Counted from the first letter of the stretch, positions 36,174-57,518 are shown. The stretch is DNA of 64,000 nt from Bacteroidota bacterium (GCA_033763735.1 JANRJY010000104.1:7738-71737); one strand, 5' to 3'. The notes: generated from the letters alone by a model not told the origin. A program made the numbers and translations.

Positions 36174-37094
36174 ATGAACTATACCTTGCACCAACTTCAA
36201 GTTTTTCTTAAAATCACACAGACACAAAGCATTACCAAAGCTTCGGAAGAGCTTAATCTGACGCAACCTGCGGTATCGATACAGTTAAAAAATTTTCAGG
36301 ATCAGTTCGAAATACCGTTAACAGAGGTAATAGGCCGAAAACTTTATATCACAGAATTTGGGAAAGAAATAGCCACCGCTGCGGAGAAAATTATCAATGA
36401 AGTATATGCTATCAATTACAAAACACTTGCATACAAAGGTCAATTGACGGGTAGACTCAAAATTAGTGTAGTATCAACCGGAAAATATGTAATGCCTTTT
36501 TTTCTTGGTGATTTTTTAAAACTTCATTCAGGTATAGAGCTACTAATGGATGTAACCAACAAAGCAAAAGTCATTGAAAGCTTAGAAAAAAATGAAGTAG
36601 ACTTTTCATTGGTATCTGTATTGCCTACTCAAATACCTATTGAAAAAGAAGAGTTAATGGTCAATAAATTATTTTTGGTTGGAAATATGTCAGAAAAATT
36701 TTCAAATAAAAATGATTCCACTTTGCTTGAAAATCTGCCTTTGATATATCGTGAATCTGGTTCAGGAACAAGATTTGTAATGGAAAAATTTATAGAAGAA
36801 CATAATTTGCCCATTCGTAAAAAAATGGAACTCACTTCTAATGAAGCTGTGAAGCAAGCTGTTATTGCTGGACTGGGCTATTCCATTATGCCCGTAATCG
36901 GGATTAAAAGTGAACTGATCAATGGCGAATTGCAAATCATTCCAATAAATGGATTTCCGATACAATCTGTTTGGAATTTGATATGGCTGAAAAACAAGAA
37001 TTTATCACCAGTATCTTTGGCTTTTTTAGAATATATTAGGACAAATAAAGAAAAGATAATTAAAGAAAAGTTTGGTTGGATATCCGCTTATTAA
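36174..37094 (+). CDS. LysR family transcriptional regulator
   Basis: The N-terminal wHTH is [38 protein letters not shown], followed by a LysR substrate-binding body. Start at the ATG at 36174; the track start at 36147 is TTG. It is divergent from the CutA-like gene and overlaps the rocD 3-prime end by 4 nt. Confidence 0.85.
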
Positions 37095-38311
37095 ACAAAC
37101 TCCAGCACCGATTTTTCGATAATATCGGCACATTCATTAATCTGAGTTTCGGTAATTACCAATGGCGGAGCAAATCGAATAATATTACCATGAGTAGGTT
37201 TAGCAAGGAGACCATTTTCTGCAAATTTCAAGCACAAATCCCATGCATTGACTTTATTAAAATAGGGATCAAGTACAATTGCATTAAGTAGCCCTTTACC
37301 TCTTACTAATTGAATATAAGGCGCTTTTGATTGCAGCTGCGTAAGTCTTTGACGTAGCAATATACCTAGTCTTTCGGCATTATCAGCCAACTTTTCATTT
37401 ACTAATACTTCTAATGAAGTCTTGGCTACTGCGCATGCCAAAGGATTGCCACCAAAAGTAGAACCATGTTCTCCGGGTTTGATACAAAGCATAATTTCAT
37501 CCGAAGCAAGTACAGCTGATACAGGCATAGTCCCACCTGAAAGTGCTTTGCCTAAGATGAGCATATCAGGATGCACATTTTCATGCTCTGAAGCGAGCAT
37601 TTTGCCTGTTCTGCACAATCCGGTTTGAATTTCGTCCATCATTAATATTACATTATACTTGGTACAAAGTGCTTGTACCTGAGCCAAGTAGCCATCATCC
37701 GGTATATATACCCCTGCTTCACCTTGTATAGGTTCTACCCAAAATCCACAAACATTAGGATTTTGTAATGCTTTATTTAGCAATGGAATATCGTTGTATG
37801 GTATAATTTGATATCCGGGCATAAAAGGACCAAAGTTTTTGCGACTATCCGGATCAGTGGATGCCGAAATAATACCCAATGTTCTTCCATGAAAGTTGCG
37901 TTGCACTGCTACAATAATAGCTTCATTTTCGGGAATTCCTTTTTTCATGTATCCCCATTTGCGAGCCAGTTTTATAGCAGTTTCGTTGGCTTCAGCACCT
38001 GAGTTCATCATAAGCACTTTGTCATAGCCCAACAATTGACATATGTACTTTTCAAATTCGCCCAATTTATCATTGTGAAATGCTCTGGATGTGAGTGTTA
38101 ATTTTTGCGCTTGGTCTATTAAAGCTGCAATTATTTTAGGGTGACAATGACCTTGATTAACCGCACTATATGCGCTTAGGAAATCGTAATATTTTTTGCC
38201 TTCTACATCCCATACATGCACCCCCAAACCTTTATTAAGTACTACAGGTAAAGGATGATAATTATGAGCACCAAATTGCTCTTCCAATTGAATATATGAG
38301 GCCGCGTGCAT
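37091..38311 (-). CDS. rocD: Ornithine aminotransferase (ornithine--oxo-acid transaminase)
   Basis: [63 protein letters not shown] and [10 protein letters not shown] (PLP lysine) are typical of OAT. Confidence 0.9.
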
Positions 38312-38324: not shown

Positions 38325-38723
38325 TTAATAGCTTATTTTTAATCCGTTAGCGACAAATACTTGAAGTTTGTCGTCAGCAGAAAGTAATGTCATTTTGTTT
38401 TTTATGGCTTGCCATACAATCATTTTGTCAAACGGGTCTTGATGGATTTTTTGTGGGAGTTTATAAAAGTCATATGTAACCTCTGAACTTAATTCCAAAA
38501 TGTGATAATTTAATCTTTTTACTTCCAAAAATATGTCTTCCGGAGTTAGTCCATTTAATTGTAATTTGCCCAATCCAAATTTTAAGGATATTTCAAAAAA
38601 AGAAATAGAACTAACAAAACACCCTCCAGGATGATTAATTAAAACAGATTGGATATTTTTGGTTAATCGCTCAGGATCAAATAATGACCACAAAATTATA
38701 TGCGTATCTAATAAATAATTCAT
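38325..38723 (-). CDS. vapC: Type II toxin, PIN domain (VapC family)
   Basis: [12 protein letters not shown] (Asp6), [13 protein letters not shown] and LLSADD supply the PIN acidic quartet. The start abuts the antitoxin stop with no gap. Confidence 0.8.
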
Positions 38724-38978
38724 TTAGTCATATAGCTTTTCATTTAACAAATCCTCATCCGTCATTTCCCAATCCGGCATAATTTTCATACTGGCACCTC
38801 TTTTCTGAAGGGTTCCTAATTCCCTTTGTTTAATTTCTACATTATTTTCATAGGGAACCAACATAGCTATGTTTGCTTTTTTCCTTCCATACGATATAGC
38901 TATTTTTTCTCCTTTTTCTACTTCCTTTAGAATAGCGGAGAAATTGGCTTTGAATTCAGCAACTGCAATTGTTTTCAT
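38724..38978 (-). CDS. Type II antitoxin, Phd/YefM-like
   Basis: MKTIAVAEFKANFSAILKEVEKGEKIAISYGRKKANIAMLVP is a typical Phd/YefM N-terminus. The gene is 84 aa and lies immediately upstream of the PIN gene. Confidence 0.7.
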   Translation of the reverse strand: MKTIAVAEFKANFSAILKEVEKGEKIAISYGRKKANIAMLVPYENNVEIKQRELGTLQKRGASMKIMPDWEMTDEDLLNEKLYD

Positions 38979-38994
38979 ATTTTACTTTTAATAT

Positions 38995-39029
38995 CAAAGA
39001 TAACACAAACTTGACAACTTGTCAAGTTT
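38995..39029 (-). promoter_or_regulatory. Candidate TA-module promoter/operator: perfect 23-bp palindrome plus a Bacteroidetes -7 box
   Basis: AAACTTGACA-ACT-TGTCAAGTTT occupies 39007-39029 and overlaps the pruA stop codon (39022-39024). The minus strand reads TATCTTTG (39002-38995, fits TAnnTTTG), ending 17 nt upstream of the antitoxin ATG. Confidence 0.4.
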
Positions 39030-40653
39030 CTGCATTTAGAAACGGATACCTGTAATCGATAGGCGACACGAAAACTTCTTTGATTGTACGAGGTGACACC
39101 CAACGCAACATATTGAGTAGTGAACCTGATTTATCATTAGTTCCTGACTGACGCGCACCTCCAAAAGGTTGCTGACCTACAATTGCTCCTGTAGGTTTGT
39201 CATTTATATAAATATTTCCTGCCGCATTTCTCAGAGCATCCAATGCTTGAATTTGAGCACTTTTGTCGGTTGCAATAATGGCTCCGGTTAGGGCATATTT
39301 ACTTGTATTATTTACTAATTTCAATATTTCTTCGTAAGCATTGTTATAAACGAAAATCGTAAGCACTGGGCCAAAAATCTCATTTTCCATGGTTTCAGAA
39401 TGTGGATCAGAAGTTAATATAACTGTTGGTTGGATGAAATATCCCTCCGAACTATCATATTTGCCACCAAAAATCACTTGATTAAGTGGATTGTTTTTAG
39501 CTCGCTCTATAAAACCTGTAATTTTATCAAATGCTTTGGCATCAATAACCGCATTAATAAAACATGATAAATCATCCGTAGGTCCTACTTTTATGGAATC
39601 AAGCTCTATTTTCATTTTTACCCATATTTGATTCCACAATGTAGCAGGAATGTAGGCACGTGACGCAGCAGAACATTTTTGTCCTTGGTACTCAAAAGCA
39701 CCTCTGATTAAGGCAGTTACAACTGTGTCAACATTGGCAGAATCGTGTACAAGTACGAAATCCTTGCCTCCGGTTTCGCCAACAATTCGGGGATAAGTTT
39801 CGTAGGTATCAATGTTTTTAGCAATTTCTTTCCATAATAACTTAAAAACCTGTGTGCTACCTGTGAAGTGCAATCCTGCAAAATCAGGATGTTTAAATAT
39901 CACTTCACCTATTTCAGGTCCATCACCATAAATCAAGTTAATTACGCCTTTTGGCAAACCGGCTTCATACAATATTTCCATTATTAAAGCAGCAGTATAT
40001 ACCTGCTGGTCGGCTGGTTTCCAAACCACAACATTGCCCATAATGGCAGGTGCTGCCGGCAAATTTCCGGCAATGGCGGTAAAGTTGAAAGGTGTGAGGG
40101 CATATATAAATCCTTCAAGTGGTCGGTAGTCGGTACGATTCCATACACCTGTTGCTGACACAGGTTGCATTTTATAAATTTCATTGGCAAAGTAAACGTT
40201 AAATCGAAGGAAATCGGCCAACTCGCACACAGCATCAATTTCAGCCTGATGCACACTTTTTGATTGTGCCAGCATGGTAGCTGCATTAATTTTATATCGG
40301 TATTTGCCTGATACCAAGTCGGCAGCTTTCATAAAAATGGCTGCTTTGTGCTCCCAAGGCATGTTTTCCCAATCCGATTTAGCATGCAATGCTGCTTTTA
40401 TAGCTTTTGCTGCTTCCGTTTTTCCGCCATAGTAATAGTGACCTAAGGTATGATTGATTTCATGCGGTGGATGTATAGATGTTTTGGTTCCTGTACGAAC
40501 TTCTTCAGCACCAATATACATTGGGATATCTTTAGAAGTACTTTTTAGTTCTTTGATAGTTTTTAGTATTTCCACACGTTCTGAACTATTGGGTGCATAA
40601 CCCAAAATAGGTTCGTTTTGAGGAATAGGGATATGAAGAATGTTGTTTTCCAT
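39022..40653 (-). CDS. pruA: L-glutamate gamma-semialdehyde (1-pyrroline-5-carboxylate) dehydrogenase
   Basis: 543-aa aldehyde dehydrogenase with VGETGGKDF (catalytic Glu) and YQGQKCSAASR (catalytic Cys). The N-terminus IPIPQNEPILGYAPNSSERVEILKTIKELK is typical of the long PruA type. Confidence 0.9.
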   Translation of the reverse strand: MENNILHIPIPQNEPILGYAPNSSERVEILKTIKELKSTSKDIPMYIGAEEVRTGTKTSIHPPHEINHTLGHYYYGGKTEAAKAIKAALHAKSDWENMPWEHKAAIFMKAADLVSGKYRYKINAATMLAQSKSVHQAEIDAVCELADFLRFNVYFANEIYKMQPVSATGVWNRTDYRPLEGFIYALTPFNFTAIAGNLPAAPAIMGNVVVWKPADQQVYTAALIMEILYEAGLPKGVINLIYGDGPEIGEVIFKHPDFAGLHFTGSTQVFKLLWKEIAKNIDTYETYPRIVGETGGKDFVLVHDSANVDTVVTALIRGAFEYQGQKCSAASRAYIPATLWNQIWVKMKIELDSIKVGPTDDLSCFINAVIDAKAFDKITGFIERAKNNPLNQVIFGGKYDSSEGYFIQPTVILTSDPHSETMENEIFGPVLTIFVYNNAYEEILKLVNNTSKYALTGAIIATDKSAQIQALDALRNAAGNIYINDKPTGAIVGQQPFGGARQSGTNDKSGSLLNMLRWVSPRTIKEVFVSPIDYRYPFLNAET

Positions 40654-40695: not shown

Positions 40696-41952
40696 TCAAC
40701 TCTCTCTTAGTATCGGAAAGGTAAGACAATGAGTTCCACCCCGAGCTCTGGATAGTTCATTTGATGGAATCAAAATCAATGTCTTTTCAATTGTTTCTGC
40801 TTTTAGTTCTCCGGATTTTAATTTTTTAATTAAGTATTCAGCCTTCATCACTTTATAACCCGCTTTTGCAATGGCTTTGGTTGTCATTTTGTTTCTGTCA
40901 TAAGTAACAGCTACTCCGGGTTTGATGGCAAACAAATTGCAACCATCTGTCCATTGTTCGCGTTCCTGATGTGGGGTAATGCCCCCTCCGCAAGCAATAA
41001 ATTTCATATTCGGATTTATTTCAGTTAATAAATCAGCCAATGAATTGTAAATAAATGGTTCTTCTATTCCTTGTTCAAATCTCTTAATTGAAATTTTACC
41101 TTTTCGCATAATTAATGGCTCAAATACAACACATACATTGGTGTCTATTCTAGTAAATATTGTGTCCAAATGCATACAATAGCGCTCTTTGGGGATTTCC
41201 ACCATAACGACATGCTTCACAATTTTCCACTTGAATATTATTTCTTTAATTTTTTCAAAAGCATACTTGCTCGTACGCTCGCTGCATCCTATCAACAAAT
41301 GATCATTCCCAAACATCATCACATCACCCCCTTCCACAGAAAATTCATTTTCAGGTTTAATAATATTTTCAATTAAATTATCCATATCATTCGATAATTT
41401 TATAAACCAATTATTCCGATGGATAATTTCAAAAGTTTTAGAATAATGATACACATACCAGCTCAACAAGGATTCACGACTTCTTGCTCTCTTATTAGCT
41501 TGAGTAATAAGCAAATGATTGTTAACCACCACACCGATATCTCTACAAAAAATATAATTAGATGCCGGAGGAAATAATATTTTTTTTGTTTTTTTGACAA
41601 CCCCGGTAATTAAACTATATGCTAATTCCTTTGGCGACATTTTTCCAAGAATTTGTTCCAATCCGTCAACTTCTTCAAATTGAGCGGTGGATTGAATTAG
41701 CTCTTTTCTAACGACTTCATTTCTACAAACTTCAAATAAAAGATCTTGAATATCCAACACATTATTTTCACCAATGAAACACTCTAATAGCTTACGAAGC
41801 ACGTTATGTTCTTTGCGCATTTTGTCGAGATACACAATATCTTCATACAAATACTCAACAGCCTTGTCAGGGGTAACCTGTTCAATACCATCATCAGGAG
41901 TATGAATGATTACTTTTTGCAGTTTGCCTATTTCAGAAGTAACGCGGATCAC
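40696..41952 (-). CDS. arcA: Arginine deiminase
   Basis: The N-terminus VTSEIGKLQKVIIHTPDDG and the C-terminal catalytic motif RARGGTHCLTFPILRE fit the ADI family, as does the length of 418 aa. GTG start. Confidence 0.8.
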   Translation of the reverse strand: MIRVTSEIGKLQKVIIHTPDDGIEQVTPDKAVEYLYEDIVYLDKMRKEHNVLRKLLECFIGENNVLDIQDLLFEVCRNEVVRKELIQSTAQFEEVDGLEQILGKMSPKELAYSLITGVVKKTKKILFPPASNYIFCRDIGVVVNNHLLITQANKRARSRESLLSWYVYHYSKTFEIIHRNNWFIKLSNDMDNLIENIIKPENEFSVEGGDVMMFGNDHLLIGCSERTSKYAFEKIKEIIFKWKIVKHVVMVEIPKERYCMHLDTIFTRIDTNVCVVFEPLIMRKGKISIKRFEQGIEEPFIYNSLADLLTEINPNMKFIACGGGITPHQEREQWTDGCNLFAIKPGVAVTYDRNKMTTKAIAKAGYKVMKAEYLIKKLKSGELKAETIEKTLILIPSNELSRARGGTHCLTFPILRES

Positions 41953-41958
41953 GAAGGA

Positions 41959-42028
41959 ATGTTAAGTGTTAAATGGTAAATGTTAAGTGTTAAATGGTAA
42001 ATGTTAAATGATAAATGGTAAATGGTAA
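41959..42028. repeat. 21-bp tandem repeat, about 3.3 copies, in the ctlX-like/arcA intergenic gap
   Basis: ATGTTAAGTGTTAAATGGTAA occurs at 41959-41979 and identically at 41980-42000. ATGTTAAATGATAAATGGTAA follows at 42001-42021, then a partial ATGGTAA. Confidence 0.9.
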
Positions 42029-42059
42029 TAATTTTAAATTACTAATTATTAACTATTAA

Positions 42060-42983
42060 TTAAAACAACATCATTTTCATGCAAAACACACTACCACCGG
42101 ATTTCATATACTCGGAGGTGTCGACTTCGATAACCTCAAATTCTTCGGTGGTGAGTACGCTTTTTGTAAAGCTGGCACCTTTGTGAATTACGCAAAACTT
42201 TTTGTTGGTTTCCAAATTAAACATGGTATGGGCATTTAATGCAAAATTTTCGATAGCTTCTTCTACAGGAATATAGTACACTCTTTTATACATTTTATGA
42301 AGTGCATCTAAACCTTCGTTTGAAAATGCTTCTTTGCAAATCATTACCGCGTCTACCCCAAGTGAGACAAAACAAGTGTCCAAATGATAAAAGCGTTCAT
42401 CTATCAATTCCAATGCAATGATTGGACATTCCAATAATTCGGATAATTCATTATATGCTTCTTTTACAGTGCGGTGTCCATATCCTCCATACAACAATCT
42501 CTTGCCTGTATGGTATATCAAATCACCCATGCCTTCAAACAATGGCGTTTTTTGTAAATCAATGGTTTTATATCCCAATTTCTGATAAAAATCTTTGAAA
42601 AACGGCACTTCTCTTTGACGCGATTGATGACGCATTTTGCTTAAAATCACTATTTTTTCACCATTTGCCGAAATCCAAGGAAATGATTGATTAGCACAAA
42701 AAACCATATCTTCACAGTCCTTTGCACCTTTAATTTCTAATACTTCATTAATAATATTTTTTTCAACACCTTTAAGAAAGGCATCTTTTAGTTCATTCCA
42801 TTGCTGAATAGCTAATGTTTTGTTCAAAGTGCCCGCATTTCCTTCCATATGCACATTTTTTACATCTACGATGTCAAAATATTCGGGGGTGCACATCAGC
42901 AAATATTTTGGCTGTTGCAATGAAACAACTTCATCTATTGTAAAATCGATATTAAAAGAAGTGTATATTTTGTTATAAATCAT
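42060..42983 (-). CDS. ctlX: Guanidino-group-modifying (amidinotransferase-fold) enzyme, arginine-deiminase-related / CtlX-like candidate citrulline hydrolase
   Basis: 307 aa. The C-terminus EYMKSGGSVFCMKMMLF places the catalytic Cys as in the GME superfamily. An internal FYHLDTCF motif is present. The specific CtlX assignment is inferred from size and context. Confidence 0.55.
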   Translation of the reverse strand: MIYNKIYTSFNIDFTIDEVVSLQQPKYLLMCTPEYFDIVDVKNVHMEGNAGTLNKTLAIQQWNELKDAFLKGVEKNIINEVLEIKGAKDCEDMVFCANQSFPWISANGEKIVILSKMRHQSRQREVPFFKDFYQKLGYKTIDLQKTPLFEGMGDLIYHTGKRLLYGGYGHRTVKEAYNELSELLECPIIALELIDERFYHLDTCFVSLGVDAVMICKEAFSNEGLDALHKMYKRVYYIPVEEAIENFALNAHTMFNLETNKKFCVIHKGASFTKSVLTTEEFEVIEVDTSEYMKSGGSVFCMKMMLF

Positions 42984-48502: not shown

Positions 48503-48538
48503 TTAATTAAAAACATTCGGGAACGAAAGGTTCCCGAA
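48503..48538 (-). terminator. Rho-independent terminator after the 1437-aa surface-protein gene
   Basis: Perfect 9-bp stem TTCGGGAAC / GTTCCCGAA with a 5-nt loop at 48516-48538. On the minus strand it is followed by TGTTTTTAATT. It starts 17 nt after the stop at 48555. Confidence 0.7.
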
Positions 48539-48554
48539 TGTGGATTTATTTAAC

Positions 48555-51500: not shown

Positions 51501-52868
51501 GTCTCCTGTAACGGATATATTTCCAATAGAAAAACTCAAAAAATTGGCAACGGTTTCAGATGGATATGCCAACCAACGAAGTTGCACTTTTGATAAATTT
51601 TCAGCTACTCCAGGCAAAGTTAAGTTAACATAAGATGTTATTTGACCGGTAAGTTTGCCACTTGAACTATAAAATGCACCCGGAATAGTTGAAAAAGAAG
51701 CGTAATTATCTGTACGATATTGAAAATATCCATATCCAGTAATAGATGATACCGATTCAACTTCCAGTTGAGTAACATCAAAAGATAGTTTAATATTTCT
51801 CCAACCTGAAGTATTTAAAGCAACAATATATCCTGCACTTCTATTAAAGAGACTAGCCAATACACCATAATAACCTGGTGTAGTAACTACATGTAAAGTA
51901 CTGGCTGTATTGGTACCGCCAGATGTTAGGATAGAAATATCATAATCTGGTGGGGATAGTGTTCTGTTTGTCATAGATGTAGTATTAGCAGTGACAAAGT
52001 CAAAAGCACCTAAAGCCCCTGTTCTAAAGCCTGCAAACCCTGCCGGGAAACCTGTTACATTGGAAAATGTACTGAAATTTTGTACATAAGGAAGTGGTTG
52101 AGGTGCAATTGTTGAAAAAGGAATAACTGTGCCGGTCACACTTATATTATCAAAAGAAAAACTGATATAATTTGTAACCGCCTCTGATGAAAATGTAAGC
52201 CATCTTAATAATACATTTGGTTTATCAGCTACCGGTACATTTGGCAATTGTAAATTAGAAAATGAAGTTTTTGTGCCTGGTGTTAACCCAGATGTGGAAT
52301 AAAATGAACCAGGTACGGTAGCAAATCCCGTAATACCAGGCACACTGTATTCTAAATATGCAAAACCCAATACACTTGAAATTGATTCTTGCTCCAATAT
52401 AGTAATGTCGTATGAAACTCTTAAATCTTGGATTCCTGTGGCATTCACTGCACTTACAAATCCGGCAGCTCTGTTAAAAACACTAATAGCCAAGCTATTA
52501 CCTGACCCACTTCCAGTAATTAAATGTATGGTACTCGTGGTTACTCCTGTACCTGCAGCAGTTATGGTTGCATAATCAATAACTGACGAAATAACTCTGT
52601 CAGAAGCTGTTGCTGCTGAAGCTACAGAATAGGTAAAGGATGCAAGCGCTCCAGTTCTAAAACCTTGAATGCCGATTGGGTATGTCAATGCAGAAGAAGC
52701 ATCAAAGTCCTGCAAGTAAGGTACTGCCTGTGGAGTGGGGTACGTTTGTGCAAATGTATTCACTGAAAATGTAAATAATACAAACGTGCAAATAAATTTG
52801 CTAAGTAGTGAATAAGACCAACCTTTGAGGTTTGGAATGGTTTTGAGGTAGAAGTAACTATTTTTCAT
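48555..52868 (-). CDS. Large (1437 aa) T9SS-sorted cell-surface protein: three N-terminal repeats of about 200 aa, an Ig-like array, a choice-of-anchor-J-like domain and a CTD
   Basis: Three repeats begin (A/L)(V/L)PY(L/V)Q(D/N)F and end ...(L/V)(R/Q)(W/V)(L/R)W...SF(S/A)(F/I/L)(D/G)NI(S/E). The C-terminal domain has DRWLVTPKISL...YFALRLV...IGFDNILVTS. The CTD is LSIYPNPTTGAATL...AGIYIVKVV (48558-48794). Confidence 0.8.
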   Translation of the reverse strand: MKNSYFYLKTIPNLKGWSYSLLSKFICTFVLFTFSVNTFAQTYPTPQAVPYLQDFDASSALTYPIGIQGFRTGALASFTYSVASAATASDRVISSVIDYATITAAGTGVTTSTIHLITGSGSGNSLAISVFNRAAGFVSAVNATGIQDLRVSYDITILEQESISSVLGFAYLEYSVPGITGFATVPGSFYSTSGLTPGTKTSFSNLQLPNVPVADKPNVLLRWLTFSSEAVTNYISFSFDNISVTGTVIPFSTIAPQPLPYVQNFSTFSNVTGFPAGFAGFRTGALGAFDFVTANTTSMTNRTLSPPDYDISILTSGGTNTASTLHVVTTPGYYGVLASLFNRSAGYIVALNTSGWRNIKLSFDVTQLEVESVSSITGYGYFQYRTDNYASFSTIPGAFYSSSGKLTGQITSYVNLTLPGVAENLSKVQLRWLAYPSETVANFLSFSIGNISVTGDNIPAPASKLMVESVSPALKLIGTPLTVIVSSKNPGDIEVPVLSNTVFSLSSTGLGFTGATNYTITGGNSRLTVTGISYSSANVGITISANRTSGDLLTNATSATFDILASDPDAPVALPYVQNFGSTPIAAGTNTVLGMKFYRAGSASWKSTLSDAIAITDGSYTLRNYQGAISNITRCTSTLTGHANNGLGPQNYNNGSDVKLNISLGSRTFQNVLSLNTTGKTDLSYKYEVQLVENYSTVSQSVTTTTGYLALQYRVGSVAGWTTVNNTTYTTGTVIDQVTTFVGYLPAAANNQPLVQVRWITFQSSDLALTDYLSFALDNIEIASKKASKLVLKNISPASPTAGFNFSATVESQNEYGVVYPVSSATGLSLSANGSGVLSGTITTTLGAGTSSITLTDLKYSISASGITLTVYTTAIGQAFLSAGTSTFNVIPFVGATKLSITNVFPIGGTKILPGRTFGVVVQALNNSNNPGVVTNATNISLAISGGTGNLTGTTSLSMASGQSSITFTGLLYSQVDQNLTLVATATSGDALTASPASTAFTVGKIATNVAILGVFPAGSIIVGSPITVRIKLVDADGEGAYVLSNTPLSVSLAQGTGTLGGTLSGTAIARVDTVIDLKGITYSKAETLVGINIAAAGIATVTSSIFSVLPNPLSGLKVLYKEDFEKTIKVAGQANPALPAGMTMYNRDGKTAIPSFYSDYGTNAYVIRRIRQRGYVALLEDLIPTENKTFFYDNSGSSFPDSNFVAYTTSYFDNDPLLNPTADRWLVTPKISLTGNNLKLSVQGMSFTSSGNFEDKFQLLFSLNEPGSTLNTADWEAFTMKAEGLVNYPDSATFTALTVPITYSVSLPTTFNNQSVYFALRLVTPSPGGDRIGFDNILVTSSDVTSVEEHSVGSKPNLSIYPNPTTGAATLSFNSASGTSVVSFISVTGEVALTKELSLEAGTQLVPISVAELPAGIYIVKVVTASNVLTTKLIIK

Positions 52869-52894: not shown

Positions 52895-54319
52895 TTAAGG
52901 CTTTGCATCCCACCAAAATCTATCAAATATTGAATAATCCGGTGGAATATTTTGAAGTCTTTGACTGACTTCTCTTGATGAATATTGAAGTCTTCTTGGC
53001 ATTTGATTTCCACTTCTGATTTTTATTTCAGGCAATCCAGCAATACCCGATATGTATTTTTCTGTACGTCTGTAATCATTCCAGGTTTCTGATTGCAAAA
53101 ACAAGGCAATATATTTTTGTTGAAATATTTTTTTCCATACTTCTTCGTCAGTCAACAAACCAATATTACTTTGGCTTGTCGCATATTTACTTAGTATTGA
53201 ATCTGGCAGAGCTTTAACCAAATTATTCTCTGACGGATCAGACGAACCTACCTCCGTTTTGCATACTCTTTCTAATGATGCTTGAATTGCATTTTTAAAT
53301 ATAGGTTTTGCACTCAATTTGCCAGTGGTTTTCATTTCAATTTCCGTTTGCATGAAAAGACATTCTTCATAAGTCAATAATGGAAAACTTGAATTAGCCA
53401 TTGCATAAAAAGGTCCGTACTTTGCTCTTGTTCCTGTCAATAAACTTTTTTTAATCTGTGCATAAAAGTCTTTTCTAGGATCGTTTAACGTAAGTAATAA
53501 ATCTGCAAACACAGGGTCCACTTCGGTTTCAAGTGTACCTGTTCGTTCAAGATACAAGGGTGCCAAATTTCCAGTTTGTCCCTGCTCAAAGGTTATAAAG
53601 CAATTGTCTGAATTAGATGTAAGTGAGAGCGCCAAAGCTGATTTAGCCTGCTCATAAGCTTGCGAATTGACCTTAATTGTATGCAAATAATATCTTGCTT
53701 TAAGGCCATAAGCCACTTTAATCCATTTACTTACATCTCCTTTGAAAATCAAATCATCTGAGCCTGGTTTTTTACCTTCAACAGGATTAGTTAAATCATT
53801 AATTCCTTCATCGAGCATTTTTTGAATACTTGCATAAATATTTTCTTGCGAATCAAAAATTGGAAATTGATATTTAGCTGCCTCAAATGCTTGTGAAAAA
53901 GGAACATCACCATAAATAGAAGTAGTAGTTCCGATTGCAGAGGCCATTAAAATTTTAGCAATCCCTCTGTAATGACTTTGCTTATCAGCATTTGCTCTTT
54001 CAATCAATTGATAGCCGCTATTCATTGCTAAATACAAATTTTCCCATAGCGAAATATTACTTCCGTCTGCCGGAGTAAAAATGTAATTATTTAAACCAAC
54101 CGGTCCATTTACATAAGTTACATAACCTGATACATTACCTATTCGCTTTACAATGCTTCCTCCAAGTGTTGAAAAATACAAATACTGAAATGTTGGCAAC
54201 CTGTATTCAACTGAAATTACATCGCTTGTCAAACTATTTGGATCAACATTCATAGATGAAAAATTGCATCCGTAAAAAAACATAATGAGTATTATTAAAA
54301 CCGAATTTGTTTTTTTCAT
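52895..54319 (-). CDS. susD: SusD/RagB family outer-membrane lipoprotein
   Basis: Lipoprotein signal MKKTNSVLIILIMFFYGC. SusD-type helical body with ETWNDYRRTEKY near the C-terminus. The ATG at 54319 lies 1 nt after the susC stop. Confidence 0.85.
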   Translation of the reverse strand: MKKTNSVLIILIMFFYGCNFSSMNVDPNSLTSDVISVEYRLPTFQYLYFSTLGGSIVKRIGNVSGYVTYVNGPVGLNNYIFTPADGSNISLWENLYLAMNSGYQLIERANADKQSHYRGIAKILMASAIGTTTSIYGDVPFSQAFEAAKYQFPIFDSQENIYASIQKMLDEGINDLTNPVEGKKPGSDDLIFKGDVSKWIKVAYGLKARYYLHTIKVNSQAYEQAKSALALSLTSNSDNCFITFEQGQTGNLAPLYLERTGTLETEVDPVFADLLLTLNDPRKDFYAQIKKSLLTGTRAKYGPFYAMANSSFPLLTYEECLFMQTEIEMKTTGKLSAKPIFKNAIQASLERVCKTEVGSSDPSENNLVKALPDSILSKYATSQSNIGLLTDEEVWKKIFQQKYIALFLQSETWNDYRRTEKYISGIAGLPEIKIRSGNQMPRRLQYSSREVSQRLQNIPPDYSIFDRFWWDAKP

Positions 54320-54320
54320 A

Positions 54321-57300
54321 TCAAAAAGTAGCATTTAATGTTAAGTGATAACTTCTGGTATTGGGCATATTGTATGCGTCTCGTCCAAAACTCGGGTCGT
54401 TGCCAGCTGCATTTGTTTCAGGATCCACACCGGAATATTTAGTAAACAAAAACAGATTTCGTGTTGCAAAAGTTATATTTAACTTTTTAAAATATGCTTT
54501 CGAAATGAGTTTTTCAGGAATAGCGTAGCTTAATGACATTTCTCGCAGCCTCACCCAGCTTGCATCTTCCATACCTCGTTCAGGTACATTTCCAAAATCG
54601 CCTCCTAAAGACCCATAGTAATCGCGATTGTATTTTATAGGTGTTTGATTTGGAGTTCCATTGGCATATACACTATTAGGTACAATAATATCCTGATCTC
54701 TATTTTCTGTTTCTTTATGGGTTCCCATAGCCAACATATTTAATTTAGTCAAATTAAAAACCTTGCCTCCTCTTCGAATATCCCAAAGCAACGAAAAAGT
54801 AAGCCCTTTCCAACTAACTGTATTTCGAATTCCTGAAAACCAATCCGGATAAGGGTTTCCAATTATGAAAGACTTTCCACCAAGAGGAGTTTCAATCATT
54901 GGCTTTCCAAGTGAATCGACTACAATAGGTAAATCTTCTCTAATTGTAAGATCATTAGGGTCTTGTCCATATCTTTTGAAACGACTTGCCCCAAATATCA
55001 TTCCGTATTGATATCCATTGGCTGCACCAGAAAAACCTTGTGTAAACCCTGCCACACCGCCTACTCTTTGATAATCATAAGTCATGCCATTAACTACAGA
55101 ACGCATGGATGTAAAATTTACGGATACATCCCAAGTAACAGCCTTTTTTATTGGGGTTCCATAAGCCATTATTTCTAATCCATTTGAGTTAATATATCCA
55201 TCATTAATAAGTGCGCGGGTATATCCCGTTGAAACAGGTACTTGTGCGTTTAATATTTGATCATAATTTCTTGTGTTATAATAAGTAATATCTATGCCAA
55301 GCCTATTTTTAAAAAACTTAGCCTCCGTTCCAAATTCATATGTAACTAATTGCTCTGGTCTTATTTCTCTATTTCCACTTTGTGTTTGGCTTACAAACAA
55401 ATTTTGATTTGAAAATCCATTCGTGAGTCCCCCAACCTGGTCGAAATATGTATTAGTTTGATAGGGTTTTGGAATATTGGCAGAAGATGCTACCGAAGCG
55501 CGAATCTTACCAAAACTAAACCAATTTGTTTTGTCAAGGTTAAAAGCATCAGTATATACAAAGGACAAATGTGCACCCGGTGTAAAATATGGTGAATACT
55601 TTTGCGAAAGTGTGGATGCCCATTCATATCTTCCTGTTAAATTAAGAAATAAATAATTTTTATATCCTATTTTTCCATCACCAAAAAACGCGAATATAGC
55701 TCTCCTGTAATCCGACCAACTTGGTTCAAATGATTTTTGGTCTGTAGCAACAAAGTCATTGAAATTTGCAAATAAATAGTCATAAGATTGTAGTCCTAAA
55801 ACCTCACTATTATTTAATACATAATTGTTTCCTATTCTGATTTCATAATCAAAATTTTTGCCTAATTTTCTTTGTGCATCCAAATAAAAATCAGTATTAA
55901 TATTTCTATTGAATTCTTGTGACTCATAAAAGGAACCTTTGTAGGATTGTTCTCTATGATTTTCGGCTGAAAATTTGCTATAATTTTCGTTAGTAGATCT
56001 GCCAAACGCATCTATCCCAACTCTACCTATGGCTTTTAACCATGGTCGTATTTCAATATCTGATTGTACAAATCCAATTATCCGATTTACACGTTCGGTG
56101 CTTACATTATTATTTACGGTAAAAAATGGATTATCAAAAACTGCATTTTTCTTTTGAGTACCATCCTCAAATTGATATGATGATGGCGTATTAACAGGAT
56201 CTGCAACTCCTCCAGAAATATCATAATCATTTGGACTACGAAATAATGAGACCACTGGCGAGGACCAATTACCACCTTTTCTCAATCGTGATGCTTCAGA
56301 ATAAGTATAAGTAGCCGAGGCAGTTAATTTCAGCCATTTATATAATTGATTGCTTCCGCTTAGTTTTACTGATGTTCTTTCAAACACTTGTTTGGGAATA
56401 ACGCCTTCTTGTCGGAAGTTACCAACAGATAAAAAGAAGTTTGAACTTTCAGTGCCACCTGAAAAACTTAAATAATTGTTTCTTTCCCAGCCTCTTGTAA
56501 AAAACTTGTTCATATTATTATATGGAGTAACGGGAGCCAAACTCGGATCGTCACTTTGAATAATATCACCTCTGCTATCCCATTTGGAAGGAATGCCATT
56601 ATAACGCAATCGGTCATAACTGGGGCCCCAACTTCTTGATTCAGCAGGGCTTCCTTGCCTTGAGTCAAATGGAGCAAATACACCATTATTTCCACCGGCA
56701 TATTTAGTTTGCAATTCGGGCAATTTGTTTACTTCGTGCATACCTACACTTGATGTAAAGTTGATAACTGTTTTGCCTGATTGTCCACTTTTAGTTGTGA
56801 TAAGAATTGCTCCATTTGCAGCCCTTATTCCATATAATGCTGCTGCTGAAGGTCCCTTCAGTACAGTTACACTAGCAATATCATCAGGGTTGATATCGAT
56901 TCCTCTATTTGCAGACTCTAAAGTGCGTGTATTATCCCCGCCACCATTGTCAATTGGTATCCCATCTACCACAATTAAAGTTTGATTATTACCATTTAAA
57001 GATGCATTCCCTCTTAATTGCATACGAGAAGCAGCACCTGGCGAACCGGAAGAAGCATTAACTTGAAGCCCTGCCACTTTTGAATTAAGGGAATTCATTA
57101 AGTTTCCTTCTTTAGAGTCTGTAATCTCTTGTGATTTAATTTCCTGTGCAGAAAAACCAATCTCCCTTTTTTCTCTTTTAATAGCTATTGAAGTCACCAA
57201 AACTTCTTCCATTTCTTTCACTTCCTCAGCAAGTGCTATATCATAGGTGGCTGAATTCCCGATGGTTACTTCTTGTGTTTTATAACCTAAAAACTGAAAT

Positions 57301-57518
57301 ACTAATATTTTGGCTGAATCAGTGATTTCAAGAATATATTTCCCGTCTAAGTCGGAAAGTGTTCCTTTGGTAGTACCTTTGATGATAACACTTACACCTG
57401 CCATTGGCTCCTTAGTTTTGGCATCGGTGATGATACCCGAAACTTTAAAAACATTATCTTGAGCTAAAGCAAGAAATTGACTAAAAATCAATAATATTAA
57501 AGTAAAGAATATTCGCAT
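54321..57518 (-). CDS. susC: SusC/RagA family TonB-dependent outer-membrane transporter
   Basis: The N-terminal carboxypeptidase-D-regulatory-like domain is VSGIITDAKTKEPMAGVSVIIKGTTKGTLSDLDGKY. Plug motifs are present (LIVVDGIPIDN, NPDDIASVTVLKGPSAAALYG). The barrel ends in ...LTLNATF. Confidence 0.9.
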   Translation of the reverse strand: MRIFFTLILLIFSQFLALAQDNVFKVSGIITDAKTKEPMAGVSVIIKGTTKGTLSDLDGKYILEITDSAKILVFQFLGYKTQEVTIGNSATYDIALAEEVKEMEEVLVTSIAIKREKREIGFSAQEIKSQEITDSKEGNLMNSLNSKVAGLQVNASSGSPGAASRMQLRGNASLNGNNQTLIVVDGIPIDNGGGDNTRTLESANRGIDINPDDIASVTVLKGPSAAALYGIRAANGAILITTKSGQSGKTVINFTSSVGMHEVNKLPELQTKYAGGNNGVFAPFDSRQGSPAESRSWGPSYDRLRYNGIPSKWDSRGDIIQSDDPSLAPVTPYNNMNKFFTRGWERNNYLSFSGGTESSNFFLSVGNFRQEGVIPKQVFERTSVKLSGSNQLYKWLKLTASATYTYSEASRLRKGGNWSSPVVSLFRSPNDYDISGGVADPVNTPSSYQFEDGTQKKNAVFDNPFFTVNNNVSTERVNRIIGFVQSDIEIRPWLKAIGRVGIDAFGRSTNENYSKFSAENHREQSYKGSFYESQEFNRNINTDFYLDAQRKLGKNFDYEIRIGNNYVLNNSEVLGLQSYDYLFANFNDFVATDQKSFEPSWSDYRRAIFAFFGDGKIGYKNYLFLNLTGRYEWASTLSQKYSPYFTPGAHLSFVYTDAFNLDKTNWFSFGKIRASVASSANIPKPYQTNTYFDQVGGLTNGFSNQNLFVSQTQSGNREIRPEQLVTYEFGTEAKFFKNRLGIDITYYNTRNYDQILNAQVPVSTGYTRALINDGYINSNGLEIMAYGTPIKKAVTWDVSVNFTSMRSVVNGMTYDYQRVGGVAGFTQGFSGAANGYQYGMIFGASRFKRYGQDPNDLTIREDLPIVVDSLGKPMIETPLGGKSFIIGNPYPDWFSGIRNTVSWKGLTFSLLWDIRRGGKVFNLTKLNMLAMGTHKETENRDQDIIVPNSVYANGTPNQTPIKYNRDYYGSLGGDFGNVPERGMEDASWVRLREMSLSYAIPEKLISKAYFKKLNITFATRNLFLFTKYSGVDPETNAAGNDPSFGRDAYNMPNTRSYHLTLNATF

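What the first reader, a model, noticed from the sequence alone, without database searches (positions are those of the whole stretch)
37091..57518. Candidate cyanophycin utilization locus: SusC/SusD plus exported cyanophycinase-type S51 peptidases plus beta-Asp-Arg import, cleavage and a complete Arg-to-Glu pathway
Seen: fourteen co-directional minus-strand genes run in this order. First susC, then susD (its ATG lies 1 nt after the susC stop). Next come a 1437-aa T9SS surface protein and a T9SS protein with tandem S51 domains. A signal-peptide cyanophycinase homolog follows (GTSAGAAVM, VDQHFIKRKRQNRL, AGGDQ), then a YfcC-family permease. After that are a cytoplasmic IaaA-type isoaspartyl peptidase (GTVGAVA), a CtlX-like amidinotransferase-fold enzyme and arginine deiminase (GGTHC). 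The string ends with P5C dehydrogenase, a Phd/VapC pair and ornithine aminotransferase. Most gaps between the genes are 1-43 nt. Established: cyanophycinases (CphB/CphE, MEROPS S51) release beta-Asp-Arg dipeptides from cyanophycin. IaaA/IadA-type isoaspartyl dipeptidases hydrolyse beta-Asp-Arg. ADI, ornithine aminotransferase and P5C dehydrogenase carry arginine carbon to glutamate. SusC/SusD pairs mark polymer-uptake loci in Bacteroidota, overwhelmingly for glycans. Inference: the string encodes surface capture, extracellular and periplasmic depolymerisation, transport across both membranes and full catabolism of an exogenous Asp/Arg polyamide. No cphA synthetase is in the window, which points to scavenging rather than storage turnover. 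I do not know of a described SusCD-type locus dedicated to cyanophycin, and that novelty claim needs a literature and database check.
Basis: partly seen in the sequence, partly recalled or inferred. Interest (0 to 1): 0.85.

Follow-up and report, generated by a model that had tools for sequence, protein, structure and literature searches.

The report
SusCD-type cyanophycin utilization locus
This Bacteroidota gene string most likely lets the cell capture, import and fully digest cyanophycin, the Asp/Arg nitrogen-storage polymer of other bacteria; it is real and conserved, but a locus of this kind was already described in 2017, so it is a new variant and not a new kind.

Summary
The gene string is real. 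It has 13 (not 14) co-directional minus-strand genes at 37091-57518: susC, susD, a 1437-aa T9SS surface protein, a T9SS two-domain S51 protein, a signal-peptide S51 cyanophycinase homologue, a YfcC permease, IaaA, two guanidino hydrolases, P5C dehydrogenase, a Phd/PIN pair and ornithine aminotransferase. The adjacency is not accidental. A 58-70% identical relative keeps the same 11-gene order without the toxin-antitoxin pair. All four SusD homologues I looked up (70-32% identity) sit beside S51 and IaaA genes. An unrelated SusD lineage has also been recruited next to the same S51 pair. I made three corrections:
- The second S51 domain has a cyanophycinase fold but lacks the catalytic residues.
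- The "CtlX-like" enzyme is closest to cyanobacterial ArgZ/AgrE arginine dihydrolase.
- Phd/PIN is a lineage-specific insertion.

Cyanophycin scavenging is the best-supported function (about 0.75). The novelty claim fails: Ben Hania et al. 2017 described a "cyanophycin utilization locus" in the Bacteroidetes Salinivirga. The new features here are IaaA instead of IadA, a different SusD lineage, a giant modular surface protein and an appended Arg-to-Glu module. I found no experimental test of any such locus. One caveat: the nearest solved homologue is labelled "pseudo-CphB".

The parts
54321..57518 (-). susC: SusC/RagA-type TonB-dependent outer-membrane transporter, 1065 aa. It has a signal peptide, a carboxypeptidase-regulatory-like N-terminal domain and a plug. 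It has no STN domain.
   Evidence: TIGR04056 597 bits (cut-off 368) and TIGR04057 signature 57.8 bits. Pfam CarbopepD_reg_2 and Plug.
52895..54319 (-). susD: SusD-like_2 lipoprotein, 474 aa from MKKTNSVLIILIMFFYGC. Its ATG lies 1 nt after the susC stop.
   Evidence: PF12771 162.8 bits. Sequence read. Its orthologue clade (19 clusters, 43-100% identity) is separated by a score gap from other SusD proteins. All four homologues looked up lie beside S51 and IaaA genes.
48555..52868 (-). 1437-aa T9SS-exported modular surface protein and candidate polymer-binding protein. It holds three copies of a ~205-aa module (residues 46-250, 256-460, ~570-785), Ig-like repeats, a choice-of-anchor J domain (1190-1340) and a type A C-terminal sorting domain (1361-1437).
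   Evidence: TIGR04183 and NF038128. Internal repeats. Shorter homologues occupy the same post-SusD slot in L082, L086, L087 and L088, and the 1200-1340 domain also occurs in the L084 PKD protein.
48513..48541 (-). Perfect 12-bp stem-loop followed by a T-run, 13 nt after the stop of the 1437-aa gene. It is a possible attenuator or transcript-stabilising element between the uptake genes and the enzyme genes.
   Evidence: Terminator-like sites overall are at chance level (14 found versus 12.7 expected), so only the length of this stem makes it stand out.
46450..48480 (-). T9SS-exported two-domain S51 protein (676 aa from M13; the ORF extends to 48516). The N-terminal domain is an intact cyanophycinase-like enzyme. 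The C-terminal domain has the cyanophycinase fold but no catalytic residues. A type A C-terminal sorting domain follows.
   Evidence: PF03575 and TIGR04183; TIGR02069 78 bits, below the 126.6 cut-off. AF2 pLDDT 91.3, with Foldseek top hits all cyanophycinases. C-domain alone: pLDDT 93.7 and TM 0.67-0.73 to CphB. Family invariants are S159, H209, R213, R215, R218 and Q129 in the N-domain, but only G442 and G537 in the C-domain.
45599..46447 (-). Signal-peptide (periplasmic) S51 cyanophycinase homologue, 282 aa.
   Evidence: TIGR02069 148 bits (cut-off 126.6), against PepE 41.7 bits. Best solved relatives are cyanophycinases 7uqv, 3en0 and 7uqw. Q101, S132, D172, Q173, H174, R178, R180, R183 and E201 are all conserved.
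44192..45592 (-). YfcC/DcuC-family inner-membrane permease, the candidate beta-Asp-Arg importer.
   Evidence: PF03606 321 bits. NF008611 348 bits, below the 500 cut-off. It sits next to S51 genes in about 30 of the 80 loci, across Bacteroidota, Ignavibacteria and Acidobacteriota.
43007..43927 (-). IaaA-type isoaspartyl peptidase. It is an Ntn hydrolase with the GTVGAVA autoprocessing site and has no signal peptide.
   Evidence: PF01112 355 bits. NF007589 355 bits, below the 567 cut-off. Sequence.
42060..42983 (-). Stand-alone ArgZ/AgrE-like guanidino hydrolase, 307 aa. It is a candidate arginine dihydrolase (Arg to Orn + 2 NH3 + CO2) or citrulline hydrolase.
   Evidence: NF052232 158.7 bits, against CtlX 33.5 bits. 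Best PDB hits are Alr4995 and Sll1336, E 3.5e-36, with ERFYHLDTCF and the C-terminal GG..C conserved.
40696..41952 (-). Divergent arginine deiminase family enzyme, 418 aa, with the GGTHC nucleophile motif.
   Evidence: PF02274 193.8 bits. TIGR01078 254 bits, below the 489 cut-off. PDB 1rxx E 1e-37.
39022..40653 (-). L-glutamate gamma-semialdehyde (P5C) dehydrogenase.
   Evidence: TIGR01236 780.8 bits, cut-off 613.6.
38325..39029 (-). Phd antitoxin (38724-38978) and PIN/VapC toxin (38325-38723), preceded by their own palindromic operator and promoter-like site (38997-39029). This is a lineage-specific insertion, not part of the pathway.
   Evidence: Pfam hits. Palindrome AAACTTGACAAGTTGTCAAGTTT. 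The pair is absent from L082, where P5CDH and OAT are 9 nt apart.
37091..38311 (-). Ornithine-oxo-acid aminotransferase.
   Evidence: TIGR01885 678.7 bits, cut-off 378.4.
57946..60336 (+). Divergently transcribed 796-aa PDC-HAMP-GAF-PAS sensor protein with no recognisable output domain. It is only a candidate regulator.
   Evidence: Pfam. A homologue sits in the same divergent position in L082 but not in L086.

Best explanation
This is a cyanophycin utilization locus built on the SusCD plan, for scavenging exogenous multi-L-arginyl-poly-L-aspartate. The proposed mechanism is as follows.

1. The T9SS places two proteins on the cell surface: the 1437-aa modular protein and the two-domain S51 enzyme. 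The enzyme resembles a fused pseudo-dimer with one live and one dead cyanophycinase-fold copy.
2. Together with the SusD lipoprotein, these proteins bind released cyanophycin and trim it.
3. SusC imports short (beta-Asp-Arg)n fragments.
4. The periplasmic 282-aa cyanophycinase homologue reduces them to beta-Asp-Arg dipeptides.
5. The YfcC-family permease carries the dipeptides into the cytoplasm.
6. IaaA splits them into Asp and Arg.
7. Arg is converted to ornithine. Either the ArgZ-like hydrolase does this alone, or the ADI does the first step and the ArgZ-like hydrolase the second.
8. Ornithine aminotransferase and P5C dehydrogenase then take the carbon to glutamate and release the nitrogen as ammonia.

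What is shown: family and fold membership, export signals, active-site conservation and conserved gene neighbourhood. What is inferred: the substrate, the size of the imported species, the division of labour between the two S51 enzymes, the YfcC substrate and the exact chemistry of the two guanidino hydrolases.
For: Enzyme identity:
- S51_282 passes the cyanophycinase equivalog cut-off (148 vs 126.6 bits) and scores only 42 bits on PepE.
- It and 27 of 27 small S51 homologues from related loci keep the Ser132-His174-Glu201 triad. They also keep all six CphB pocket residues: Q101, D172, Q173, R178, R180 and R183.
- In the T9SS enzyme's N-domain, S159, H209, R213, R215, R218 and Q129 are invariant across 65 homologues. 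Its model matches CphB at TM 0.82, against 0.65-0.73 for PepE.

Export signals:
- The two T9SS proteins and S51_282 carry signal peptides.
- SusD has a lipobox Cys.
- IaaA has no signal peptide.

Synteny:
- L082 (58-70% identity) has the same 11 genes in the same order.
- L086 (SusD 55% identical) has the same order as far as ADI, where the contig stretch ends.
- L087 and Phaeodactylibacter luteus L088 (SusD 49% and 32% identical) keep SusCD, S51 and IaaA.
- A different SusD lineage (SusD_RagB type) is joined to the same S51 pair plus IaaA or an IadA-type amidohydrolase in Chryseolinea soli, Fulvivirga and Bacteroidales MAGs.
- 20 of the 22 closest S51_282 homologues sit next to YfcC and/or an isoaspartyl peptidase.

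Arginine link:
- The 307-aa enzyme is most similar to ArgZ and AgrE. From my own knowledge, these are the cyanobacterial enzymes that catabolise cyanophycin-derived arginine.

Literature:
- Cyanophycinase plus isoaspartyl dipeptidase clusters in genomes lacking cphA are read as scavenging clusters (PMC10206079).
- No cphA lies in the 64-kb window.
Against: - No biochemistry or genetics exists for this or, as far as I could find, for any SusCD-type cyanophycin locus.
- S51_282 is only just above the TIGR02069 cut-off.
- Its nearest solved relative, 7uqv, is named 'pseudo-CphB' by its depositors. That protein scores 276 bits on the same model and keeps every residue I checked. HMM membership and these residues therefore do not prove cyanophycinase activity.
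- The T9SS enzyme is below the cut-off and has Ser in place of Gln173.
- Known cyanophycinases release dipeptides, which would not obviously need a SusCD importer.
- The IaaA, YfcC, ADI and ArgZ-like proteins all score below their NCBIfam equivalog cut-offs.
- Whether cphA is present elsewhere in the genome is unknown.
Confidence: 0.75

Rival explanations
1. A general aspartyl-peptide or oligopeptide scavenging locus. On this view SusCD works as a RagAB-like peptide importer, the S51 proteins act as PepE-like Asp-X peptidases, IaaA serves as an asparaginase or isoaspartyl-repair peptidase, and the arginine genes handle peptide-derived Arg.
For: S51 also contains dipeptidase E, and S51_282 gives a weak PepE match of 41.7 bits. 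IaaA and IadA enzymes from cyanophycin clusters are promiscuous for beta-aspartyl dipeptides (PMC10206079). SusCD-type peptide import is known for RagAB (my own knowledge). The locus contains no CAZyme.
Against: The cyanophycinase model outscores PepE by more than 100 bits. The CphB-specific pocket (D172, Q173, R178, R180, R183) is strictly conserved in all 27 small S51 homologues. Fold matches to CphB (TM 0.82) beat those to PepE (0.65-0.73). The locus repeatedly pairs S51 with a beta-aspartyl peptidase and, in this clade, with arginine-specific catabolism and nothing for other amino acids.
Confidence: 0.1
2. The S51 proteins are 'pseudo-cyanophycinases'. On this view they act on a related but different substrate, for example another isoaspartyl-linked or arginine-rich polymer or peptide conjugate, and the locus is dedicated to that unknown substrate.
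For: The closest solved relative of both S51 proteins, by sequence and by fold, is the entry its depositors call pseudo-CphB (7uqv). That protein passes TIGR02069 at 276 bits and keeps all pocket residues, so those criteria cannot separate true from pseudo enzymes. S51_282 is a marginal member at 148 bits. S51 peptidases are also known to act on peptidyl-nucleotides (title of PMC9239234, listed).
Against: The margin of 7uqv over true CphB is small (E 1.5e-23 vs 7e-19; TM equal at 0.82). The context of IaaA or IadA, a basic-amino-acid-type permease and ArgZ-like/ADI/OAT/P5CDH genes is exactly what beta-Asp-Arg requires. No other natural Asp+Arg isopeptide polymer is known to me. I could not read the paper that defines 'pseudo'.
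Confidence: 0.12
3. Accidental adjacency: an ordinary glycan-type SusCD pair happens to lie next to unrelated S51, IaaA and arginine genes.
For: SusCD pairs are overwhelmingly glycan-linked. The YfcC-IaaA gap (264 nt) and the hairpin at 48513-48541 suggest more than one transcription unit.
Against: The whole 11-gene order is preserved at 58-70% protein identity and again at 55%. Four of four SusD homologues down to 32% identity lie next to S51 and IaaA genes. A second SusD lineage is independently linked to the same enzymes. No CAZyme lies in the string.
Confidence: 0.03

Closest known systems
Cyanophycin utilization locus (CUL) of Salinivirga cyanobacteriivorans L21-Spi-D4 (Ben Hania et al. 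2017, Environ Microbiol 19:1134)
   Same: A Bacteroidota locus for scavenging external cyanophycin. It has two cyanophycinase homologues, one carrying a Por/T9SS sorting domain, plus an isoaspartyl dipeptidase and a transporter (PMC10206079; PMC6243061). From my memory of the abstract, its transport complex is homologous to PULs. The Bacteroidales MAG loci L084 and L085 fit that description and contain SusC/SusD.
   Different: This locus uses IaaA (an Ntn hydrolase) instead of IadA (an amidohydrolase). Its SusD lineage is SusD-like_2, not SusD_RagB/SusD-like_3. A 1437-aa modular T9SS protein replaces the PKD/beta-propeller proteins. It has no ECF sigma/anti-sigma pair and no STN domain on SusC. 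It carries an appended ArgZ-like + ADI + P5CDH + OAT module. I could not read the 2017 paper itself.
Extracellular cyanophycinase CphE systems (Pseudomonas anguilliseptica BI and others; Obst et al. 2002, cited in PMC10206079 and PMC9974463)
   Same: A secreted S51 serine peptidase degrades environmental cyanophycin. The beta-Asp-Arg produced is imported and split by an isoaspartyl dipeptide hydrolase.
   Different: CphE is a freely secreted single-domain enzyme with no dedicated outer-membrane importer. Here there is a surface-targeted two-domain enzyme, a second periplasmic enzyme and a SusCD pair.
Cyanobacterial cyanophycin catabolism: CphB, then IaaA, then ArgZ/AgrE arginine dihydrolase
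   Same: The same three enzyme families appear in the same logical order: a CphB-type S51 enzyme, IaaA, and an ArgZ-like guanidino hydrolase.
   Different: The cyanobacterial pathway is intracellular turnover of the cell's own store and is coupled to CphA. ArgZ/AgrE are about 700-aa bifunctional proteins, whereas here only the roughly 270-aa hydrolase domain is present as a stand-alone 307-aa protein beside an ADI. The upstream steps here are exported.
Canonical polysaccharide utilization loci (the Sus paradigm) and the RagAB peptide importer of Porphyromonas gingivalis
   Same: A SusC/SusD pair is translationally coupled and followed by surface binding proteins, with surface and periplasmic depolymerases and then cytoplasmic catabolism. 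RagAB shows that SusCD-type pairs can import peptides (my own knowledge).
   Different: There is no CAZyme. The depolymerases are S51 peptidases, and the presumed cargo is a branched isopeptide polyamide. The surface proteins are T9SS C-terminal-domain proteins rather than SusE/F-type lipoproteins.

Membership tests
Cyanophycinase (CphB/CphE/CphI; MEROPS S51; TIGR02069) | Score at or above the curated equivalog cut-off of TIGR02069 (126.6 bits) | tested here: met
   S51_282 scores 148 bits. The T9SS enzyme scores 78 bits and does not meet the cut-off. True CphB scores 323 bits and the depositor-named pseudo-CphB scores 276 bits, so passing this model is not proof of activity.
Cyanophycinase (CphB/CphE/CphI; MEROPS S51; TIGR02069) | Ser-His-Glu catalytic residues and the substrate pocket Q101, D172, Q173, R178, R180, R183. 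Numbering is that of Synechocystis CphB. The residue list is from Law et al. 2009, recalled from memory. | tested here: met
   All are conserved in S51_282 and in 27 of 27 homologues from related loci. In the T9SS enzyme all are kept except Q173, which is Ser family-wide, and E201, which is Asp.
Cyanophycinase (CphB/CphE/CphI; MEROPS S51; TIGR02069) | Hydrolysis of cyanophycin to beta-Asp-Arg | not testable with these tools
   This needs an enzyme assay.
Dipeptidase E (PepE, S51) | Score at or above the NF003642 cut-off (156 bits) | tested here: not met
   S51_282 scores 41.7 bits. The T9SS enzyme gives no hit.
SusC/RagA TonB-dependent transporter paired with a SusD lipoprotein | TIGR04056 and the TIGR04057 signature above cut-off, with an adjacent downstream SusD-family lipoprotein gene | tested here: met
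   597 bits (cut-off 368) and 57.8 bits (cut-off 46.2). SusD-like_2 scores 162.8 bits. The N-terminus MKKTNSVLIILIMFFYGC carries a lipobox Cys, and the gap to susC is 1 nt.
Polysaccharide utilization locus in the strict sense (SusCD plus CAZymes) | Carbohydrate-active enzymes encoded within the co-directional string | tested here: not met
   No glycoside hydrolase, lyase or esterase domain occurs among the 13 genes. The GH3 gene (30664-32958) and the alpha-amylase gene (61945-63621) lie outside the string on the other strand.
T9SS type A cargo | C-terminal sorting domain (TIGR04183 / PF18962) plus an N-terminal signal peptide | tested here: met
   The 1437-aa protein scores 45.1 bits and the S51 protein 32.3 bits (cut-off 23). 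Hydrophobic N-termini are seen. The Foldseek search also matches T9SS C-terminal-domain structures. The T9SS machinery genes themselves are not in the window.
Cyanophycin utilization locus (as cited from Ben Hania 2017) | Clustered cyanophycinase gene(s), an isoaspartyl dipeptidase and a transporter, in a genome region without cphA | tested here: met
   The locus has two S51 genes, IaaA (in place of iadA), YfcC and SusCD. No cphA lies in the 64-kb window. The rest of the genome is not available.
IaaA isoaspartyl aminopeptidase (NF007589 equivalog) | Equivalog cut-off of 567 bits, and the autoproteolytic Gly-Thr site | tested here: inconclusive
   It scores 355 bits, below the cut-off. PF01112 matches full length at 355 bits, and the GTVGAVA motif is present. 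Activity on beta-Asp-Arg was not testable.
Arginine dihydrolase ArgZ/AgrE (NF052232) | Equivalog-domain cut-off of 450 bits, and the catalytic His and Cys motifs | tested here: inconclusive
   It scores 158.7 bits, below the cut-off, but this is the best of seven guanidino-hydrolase models; CtlX scores 33.5 bits. It aligns to Alr4995 and Sll1336 at E 3.5e-36 with ERFYHLDTCF and GG..C conserved.
Arginine deiminase ArcA (TIGR01078) | Equivalog cut-off of 489 bits, and the C-terminal Cys nucleophile | tested here: inconclusive
   It scores 254 bits, below the cut-off. Pfam ADI scores 193.8 bits. The GGTHC motif aligns with GGGHC of 1rxx.
P5C dehydrogenase (TIGR01236) and ornithine aminotransferase (TIGR01885) | Equivalog cut-offs | tested here: met
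   P5C dehydrogenase scores 780.8 bits (cut-off 613.6) and ornithine aminotransferase scores 678.7 bits (cut-off 378.4).

The most novel reading that the evidence does not exclude
SusCD pairs in this locus class import oligomers of a branched isopeptide polyamide. That cargo class would be new for SusCD transporters: neither a glycan nor a ribosomal peptide. The oligomers would be generated by a previously uncharacterised family of T9SS surface enzymes. These enzymes are intramolecular pseudo-dimers of the cyanophycinase fold, with one live and one dead copy, and a family-wide Gln173-to-Ser pocket change that might permit release of fragments longer than dipeptides. In this clade the locus is further fused to a stand-alone ArgZ-type arginine dihydrolase pathway that has not been described outside cyanobacteria.
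Probability: 0.3. Interest if true: 0.65.

Novelty: new variant of a known kind. Interest (0 to 1): 0.45.

Why it matters
Cyanophycin is a major store of fixed nitrogen in cyanobacteria and in many heterotrophs. Who recycles it after cell lysis, and how, is poorly known.

This locus class is widespread in Bacteroidota. The dead S51-like domain alone defines 169 clusters at 50% identity, and there are related S51-YfcC clusters in Ignavibacteria and Acidobacteriota. That spread points to a dedicated, polymer-level scavenging route in bloom, mat and wastewater communities.

Mechanistically, it would extend the SusCD paradigm to a non-glycan polyamide. It also offers a compact, testable 11-gene pathway running from outside the cell to glutamate.

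The practical value of this work is threefold:
- It shows the idea is already in the literature.
- It defines what is different in this variant.
- It names cultured strains with homologous loci in which the untested hypothesis can be tested directly.

Tried and rejected
- **Source of the window.** The S51_282 protein is on record only on a 1.75-kb Logan contig. The NCBI protein P0001 is not in the contig index. Apart from NCBI's label 'Bacteroidota bacterium' MAG, I obtained no taxonomy or habitat. The species was not found in the GTDB representative scan, where the best hit was 53% identical.
- **Key papers.** Ben Hania 2017 and Sharon 2022 (BBA; pseudo-CphB) are not held. The SusCD content of the Salinivirga locus and the meaning of 'pseudo' therefore rest on secondary citations and my memory.
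- **Literature search.** Searches for cyanophycin with SusC/SusD, TonB, PUL or Bacteroidota found no experimental study of a SusCD-type cyanophycin importer.
- **Rfam.** There were no hits in the window.
- **Promoter and terminator scans.** Both were at chance level (81 found vs 79.5 expected; 14 vs 12.7). Only the 12-bp hairpin and the TA palindrome stand out.
- **Long spacers.** The two long spacers and the TA cassette have no repeats elsewhere in the window and no meaningful matches in related loci.
- **Homologues of the 1437-aa protein.** The search returned only the protein itself and the L082 orthologue. An alignment for modelling its repeat module (A2) was too shallow and I abandoned it.
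- **CtlX assignment rejected.** It scored 33 bits against 159 bits for arginine dihydrolase.
- **Phylogeny.** A tree with characterised CphE, CphI and PepE could not be built because those sequences are not retrievable with these tools. HMM scores, PDB matches and residue checks were used in its place.

Full report
**Observation**

ORF listing finds 13 co-directional minus-strand genes between 37091 and 57518. No credible further ORF lies in the gaps.

Profile searches confirm every family assignment:
- SusC: TIGR04056, 597 bits, cut-off 368.
- SusD: SusD-like_2, 163 bits.
- 1437-aa protein: a choice-of-anchor J domain and a T9SS type A sorting domain.
- 688-aa protein: Peptidase_S51 plus a T9SS sorting domain.
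- 282-aa protein: S51; TIGR02069 cyanophycinase 148 bits (cut-off 126.6), PepE only 42 bits.
- YfcC/DcuC permease.
- IaaA-type Asparaginase_2 enzyme with the GTVGAVA processing site.
- A 307-aa and a 418-aa guanidino-group hydrolase.
- P5C dehydrogenase (TIGR01236, 781 bits).
- Phd and PIN.
- Ornithine aminotransferase (TIGR01885, 679 bits).

The susD ATG at 54319 is 1 nt after the susC stop. Most gaps are 0-43 nt. The YfcC-IaaA gap is 264 nt and the gap before ADI is 107 nt.

**Export signals**

Reading the N-termini shows the following:
- SusC, the 1437-aa protein, the S51-T9SS protein (from M13) and S51_282 have signal peptides.
- SusD has a lipobox.
- IaaA and the arginine enzymes have no export signal.

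This gives a surface, periplasm, cytoplasm layout.

**The S51 enzymes**

S51_282 aligns best to solved cyanophycinases (7uqv, 3en0, 7uqw). It keeps the catalytic Ser132, His174 and Glu201 and the pocket residues Q101, D172, Q173, R178, R180 and R183. The residue list is from Law et al. 2009, recalled from memory. All 27 small S51 proteins taken from related loci keep the same residues.

The T9SS protein was modelled with pLDDT 91.3. Its best fold matches are cyanophycinases at TM 0.82, ahead of PepE at 0.65-0.73. Across 65 homologues the N-domain invariants include Q129, S159, H209, R213, R215 and R218. Position 173 is Ser family-wide.

The C-terminal half has no Pfam hit, but three lines of evidence place it in the same fold:
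- A profile-profile comparison with the N-half is in register (E 9e-5).
- Modelled alone it reaches pLDDT 93.7.
- It matches CphB with TM 0.67-0.73 at 11-14% identity.

Only two glycines are invariant in that half, and the Ser/His/Arg motifs are gone. Because CphB crystallises as a dimer (my own knowledge), I read the protein as a fused pseudo-dimer. This dead domain defines 169 clusters at 50% identity, nearly always at residues ~300-580 of 650-680-aa proteins.

**Caveat on the S51 assignment**

Entry 7uqv is titled "pseudo-CphB" by its depositors. Its sequence scores 276 bits on TIGR02069 and keeps every residue I checked. These criteria therefore do not prove cyanophycinase activity. I could not obtain the paper that explains the name.

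**The arginine module**

The 307-aa enzyme is not CtlX-like: CtlX scores 33.5 bits. Its best model is arginine dihydrolase at 158.7 bits, which is below that model's cut-off. Its best solved relatives are the N-terminal domains of Alr4995 (AgrE) and Sll1336 (ArgZ), with ERFYHLDTCF and the C-terminal Cys conserved. The 418-aa enzyme is a divergent ADI with GGTHC.

The locus contains no ornithine carbamoyltransferase and no carbamate kinase. The ArgZ-like enzyme is therefore what makes the Arg to Orn step complete, either alone or by hydrolysing ADI-made citrulline. This is inference. OAT and P5CDH then give glutamate.

**Synteny**

*Window clade.* The closest relative found is a Cytophagales MAG, locus L082, with proteins 58-70% identical. 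It has the same 11 genes in the same order and lacks Phd/PIN; its P5CDH and OAT genes are 9 nt apart. The toxin-antitoxin pair is therefore an insertion. It brings its own palindromic operator and promoter-like site at 38997-39029.

*SusD clade.* A search with SusD gave a discrete orthologue clade of 19 clusters (at least 412 bits), then a drop to 231 bits. Several of its members share contig lengths with the top S51-T9SS hits. Every SusD homologue I looked up lies beside S51 and IaaA genes:
- L086 (55% identical): same order through ADI.
- L087 (49% identical).
- Phaeodactylibacter luteus L088 (32% identical).

*Second SusD lineage.* A different lineage (SusD_RagB / SusD-like_3) is joined to the same S51 pair in four places:
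- Chryseolinea soli.
- A Fulvivirga MAG.
- Two Bacteroidales MAGs, which carry an IadA-type amidohydrolase and an ECF sigma/anti-sigma pair.

*Census.* Among the 22 closest S51_282 homologues, 20 neighbour a YfcC permease and/or an isoaspartyl peptidase, and 8-9 neighbour SusCD.

*Surface protein.* The post-SusD T9SS protein is a homologous family with a variable number of modules (1437, 1431, 1107, 643 and 289 aa). Its choice-of-anchor J-like domain also occurs in the PKD protein of L084.

Accidental adjacency is excluded.

**Mechanism**

The best-supported reading is scavenging of exogenous cyanophycin:
1. T9SS-displayed binding protein and S51 enzyme, together with SusD, capture and trim the polymer at the surface.
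2. SusC imports the fragments.
3. The periplasmic S51 enzyme finishes them to beta-Asp-Arg.
4. YfcC imports the dipeptides.
5. IaaA cleaves them to Asp and Arg.
6. Arg goes to Orn, then to glutamate semialdehyde, then to Glu.

No cphA lies in the window, and the export signals argue against turnover of an internal store.

Open points:
- Why is a SusCD importer needed if only dipeptides are released?
- Is the Gln173-to-Ser surface enzyme able to release longer fragments?
- What regulates the locus? A divergent PDC-HAMP-GAF-PAS protein is conserved in L082 but not in L086.

**Comparison with the literature**

- PMC10206079 cites Ben Hania et al. [quoted passage not shown] It also mentions a similar cluster in Flammeovirga pacifica, and it finds cyanophycinase-isoaspartyl dipeptidase clustering in 45 of 52 genomes that lack cphA.
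- PMC6243061 notes that one of the two Salinivirga cyanophycinases has a Por-secretion domain.
- From memory, the 2017 abstract describes the transport complex as homologous to PULs. L084 and L085 match that description and include SusCD.
- A TonB-dependent transporter next to a cyanophycinase gene was also noted in Citromicrobium in 2012 (PMC3400609).

I found no experimental test of any such system.

**Verdict**

This is a real, conserved, non-glycan SusCD locus, most likely for cyanophycin (confidence 0.75). It is a new variant of a known but untested kind. Its distinguishing features are:
- IaaA instead of IadA.
- A distinct SusD lineage.
- A giant modular surface protein.
- No ECF sigma/anti-sigma signalling pair.
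- An appended ArgZ-like/ADI/P5CDH/OAT module.

Interest: 0.45.

Noticed in passing
window 48513-48541 (minus strand): A perfect 12-bp stem-loop (ACATTCGGGAAC-CTTTC-GTTCCCGAATGT) followed by TTTTAATTAAAT lies 13 nt after the stop of the 1437-aa gene. It overlaps the first ATG of the 688-aa ORF. It may set different expression levels for the uptake genes and the enzyme genes, and it implies that the S51-T9SS start is ATG 48480. NCBI calls a 655-aa product that would lack the signal peptide.
   Followed up: partly
window 38325-39029: The Phd/PIN(VapC) pair sits inside the catabolic string, with its own palindrome AAACTTGACAAGTTGTCAAGTTT carrying a TTGACA-17-TATCTT promoter-like site. It is absent from the syntenic locus L082. 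It is therefore a toxin-antitoxin cassette inserted between P5CDH and OAT, and it may now drive or perturb OAT expression.
   Followed up: partly
window 41953-42059: The 107-nt spacer between the ArgZ-like gene and the ADI gene is largely a ~21-nt AT-rich tandem repeat (CATTTACCATTTAACACTTAA, about 3 copies). Its function is unknown.
   Followed up: no
window 43928-44191: The spacer between YfcC and IaaA is 264 nt, against 26-28 nt in L082 and L086. It contains an AT-rich hairpin (tttactttttGGCCaaacaaaaagtaaa). It may be an internal terminator and promoter separating the envelope genes from the cytoplasmic genes. It has no repeat elsewhere in the window.
   Followed up: partly
window 57946-60336 (+) and 60453-60851 (+): A 796-aa PDC-HAMP-GAF-PAS sensor protein with no kinase or other output domain is divergent from susC and conserved in L082. 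It is followed by a 132-aa ORF with no Pfam match. How it would signal is unclear.
   Followed up: partly
window 36147-37094 (+): A LysR-family regulator is convergent with the OAT gene and overlaps its 3' end by 4 nt. It is not conserved at this position in L082.
   Followed up: no
window 21204-30584 (+), 9760-13794 (+), 6172-8799 (+): The window holds further large secreted proteins: a 3126-aa Big_2-repeat T9SS protein (in a stretch with higher GC, 0.38-0.40, against about 0.33 around it), a 1344-aa T9SS protein with no other recognisable domain, and a DUF4953 Met-zincin.
   Followed up: no
L028, L059, L060, L075 (Gemmatimonadales MAGs); L017-L027 (Ignavibacteria); L031-L058 (Acidobacteriota): Outside Bacteroidota, S51_282 homologues are also followed by a TonB-dependent receptor with a SusD-like gene (Gemmatimonadales) or paired with a YfcC permease (Ignavibacteria, Acidobacteriota). 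This suggests that cyanophycin or beta-Asp-Arg scavenging modules are spread across several phyla.
   Followed up: partly
PDB entry 7uqv versus NCBIfam TIGR02069: The protein its depositors call 'pseudo-CphB' scores 276 bits on the cyanophycinase equivalog model (cut-off 126.6) and retains all checked catalytic and pocket residues. Automatic 'cyanophycinase' annotations may therefore include inactive or differently specific proteins.
   Followed up: partly
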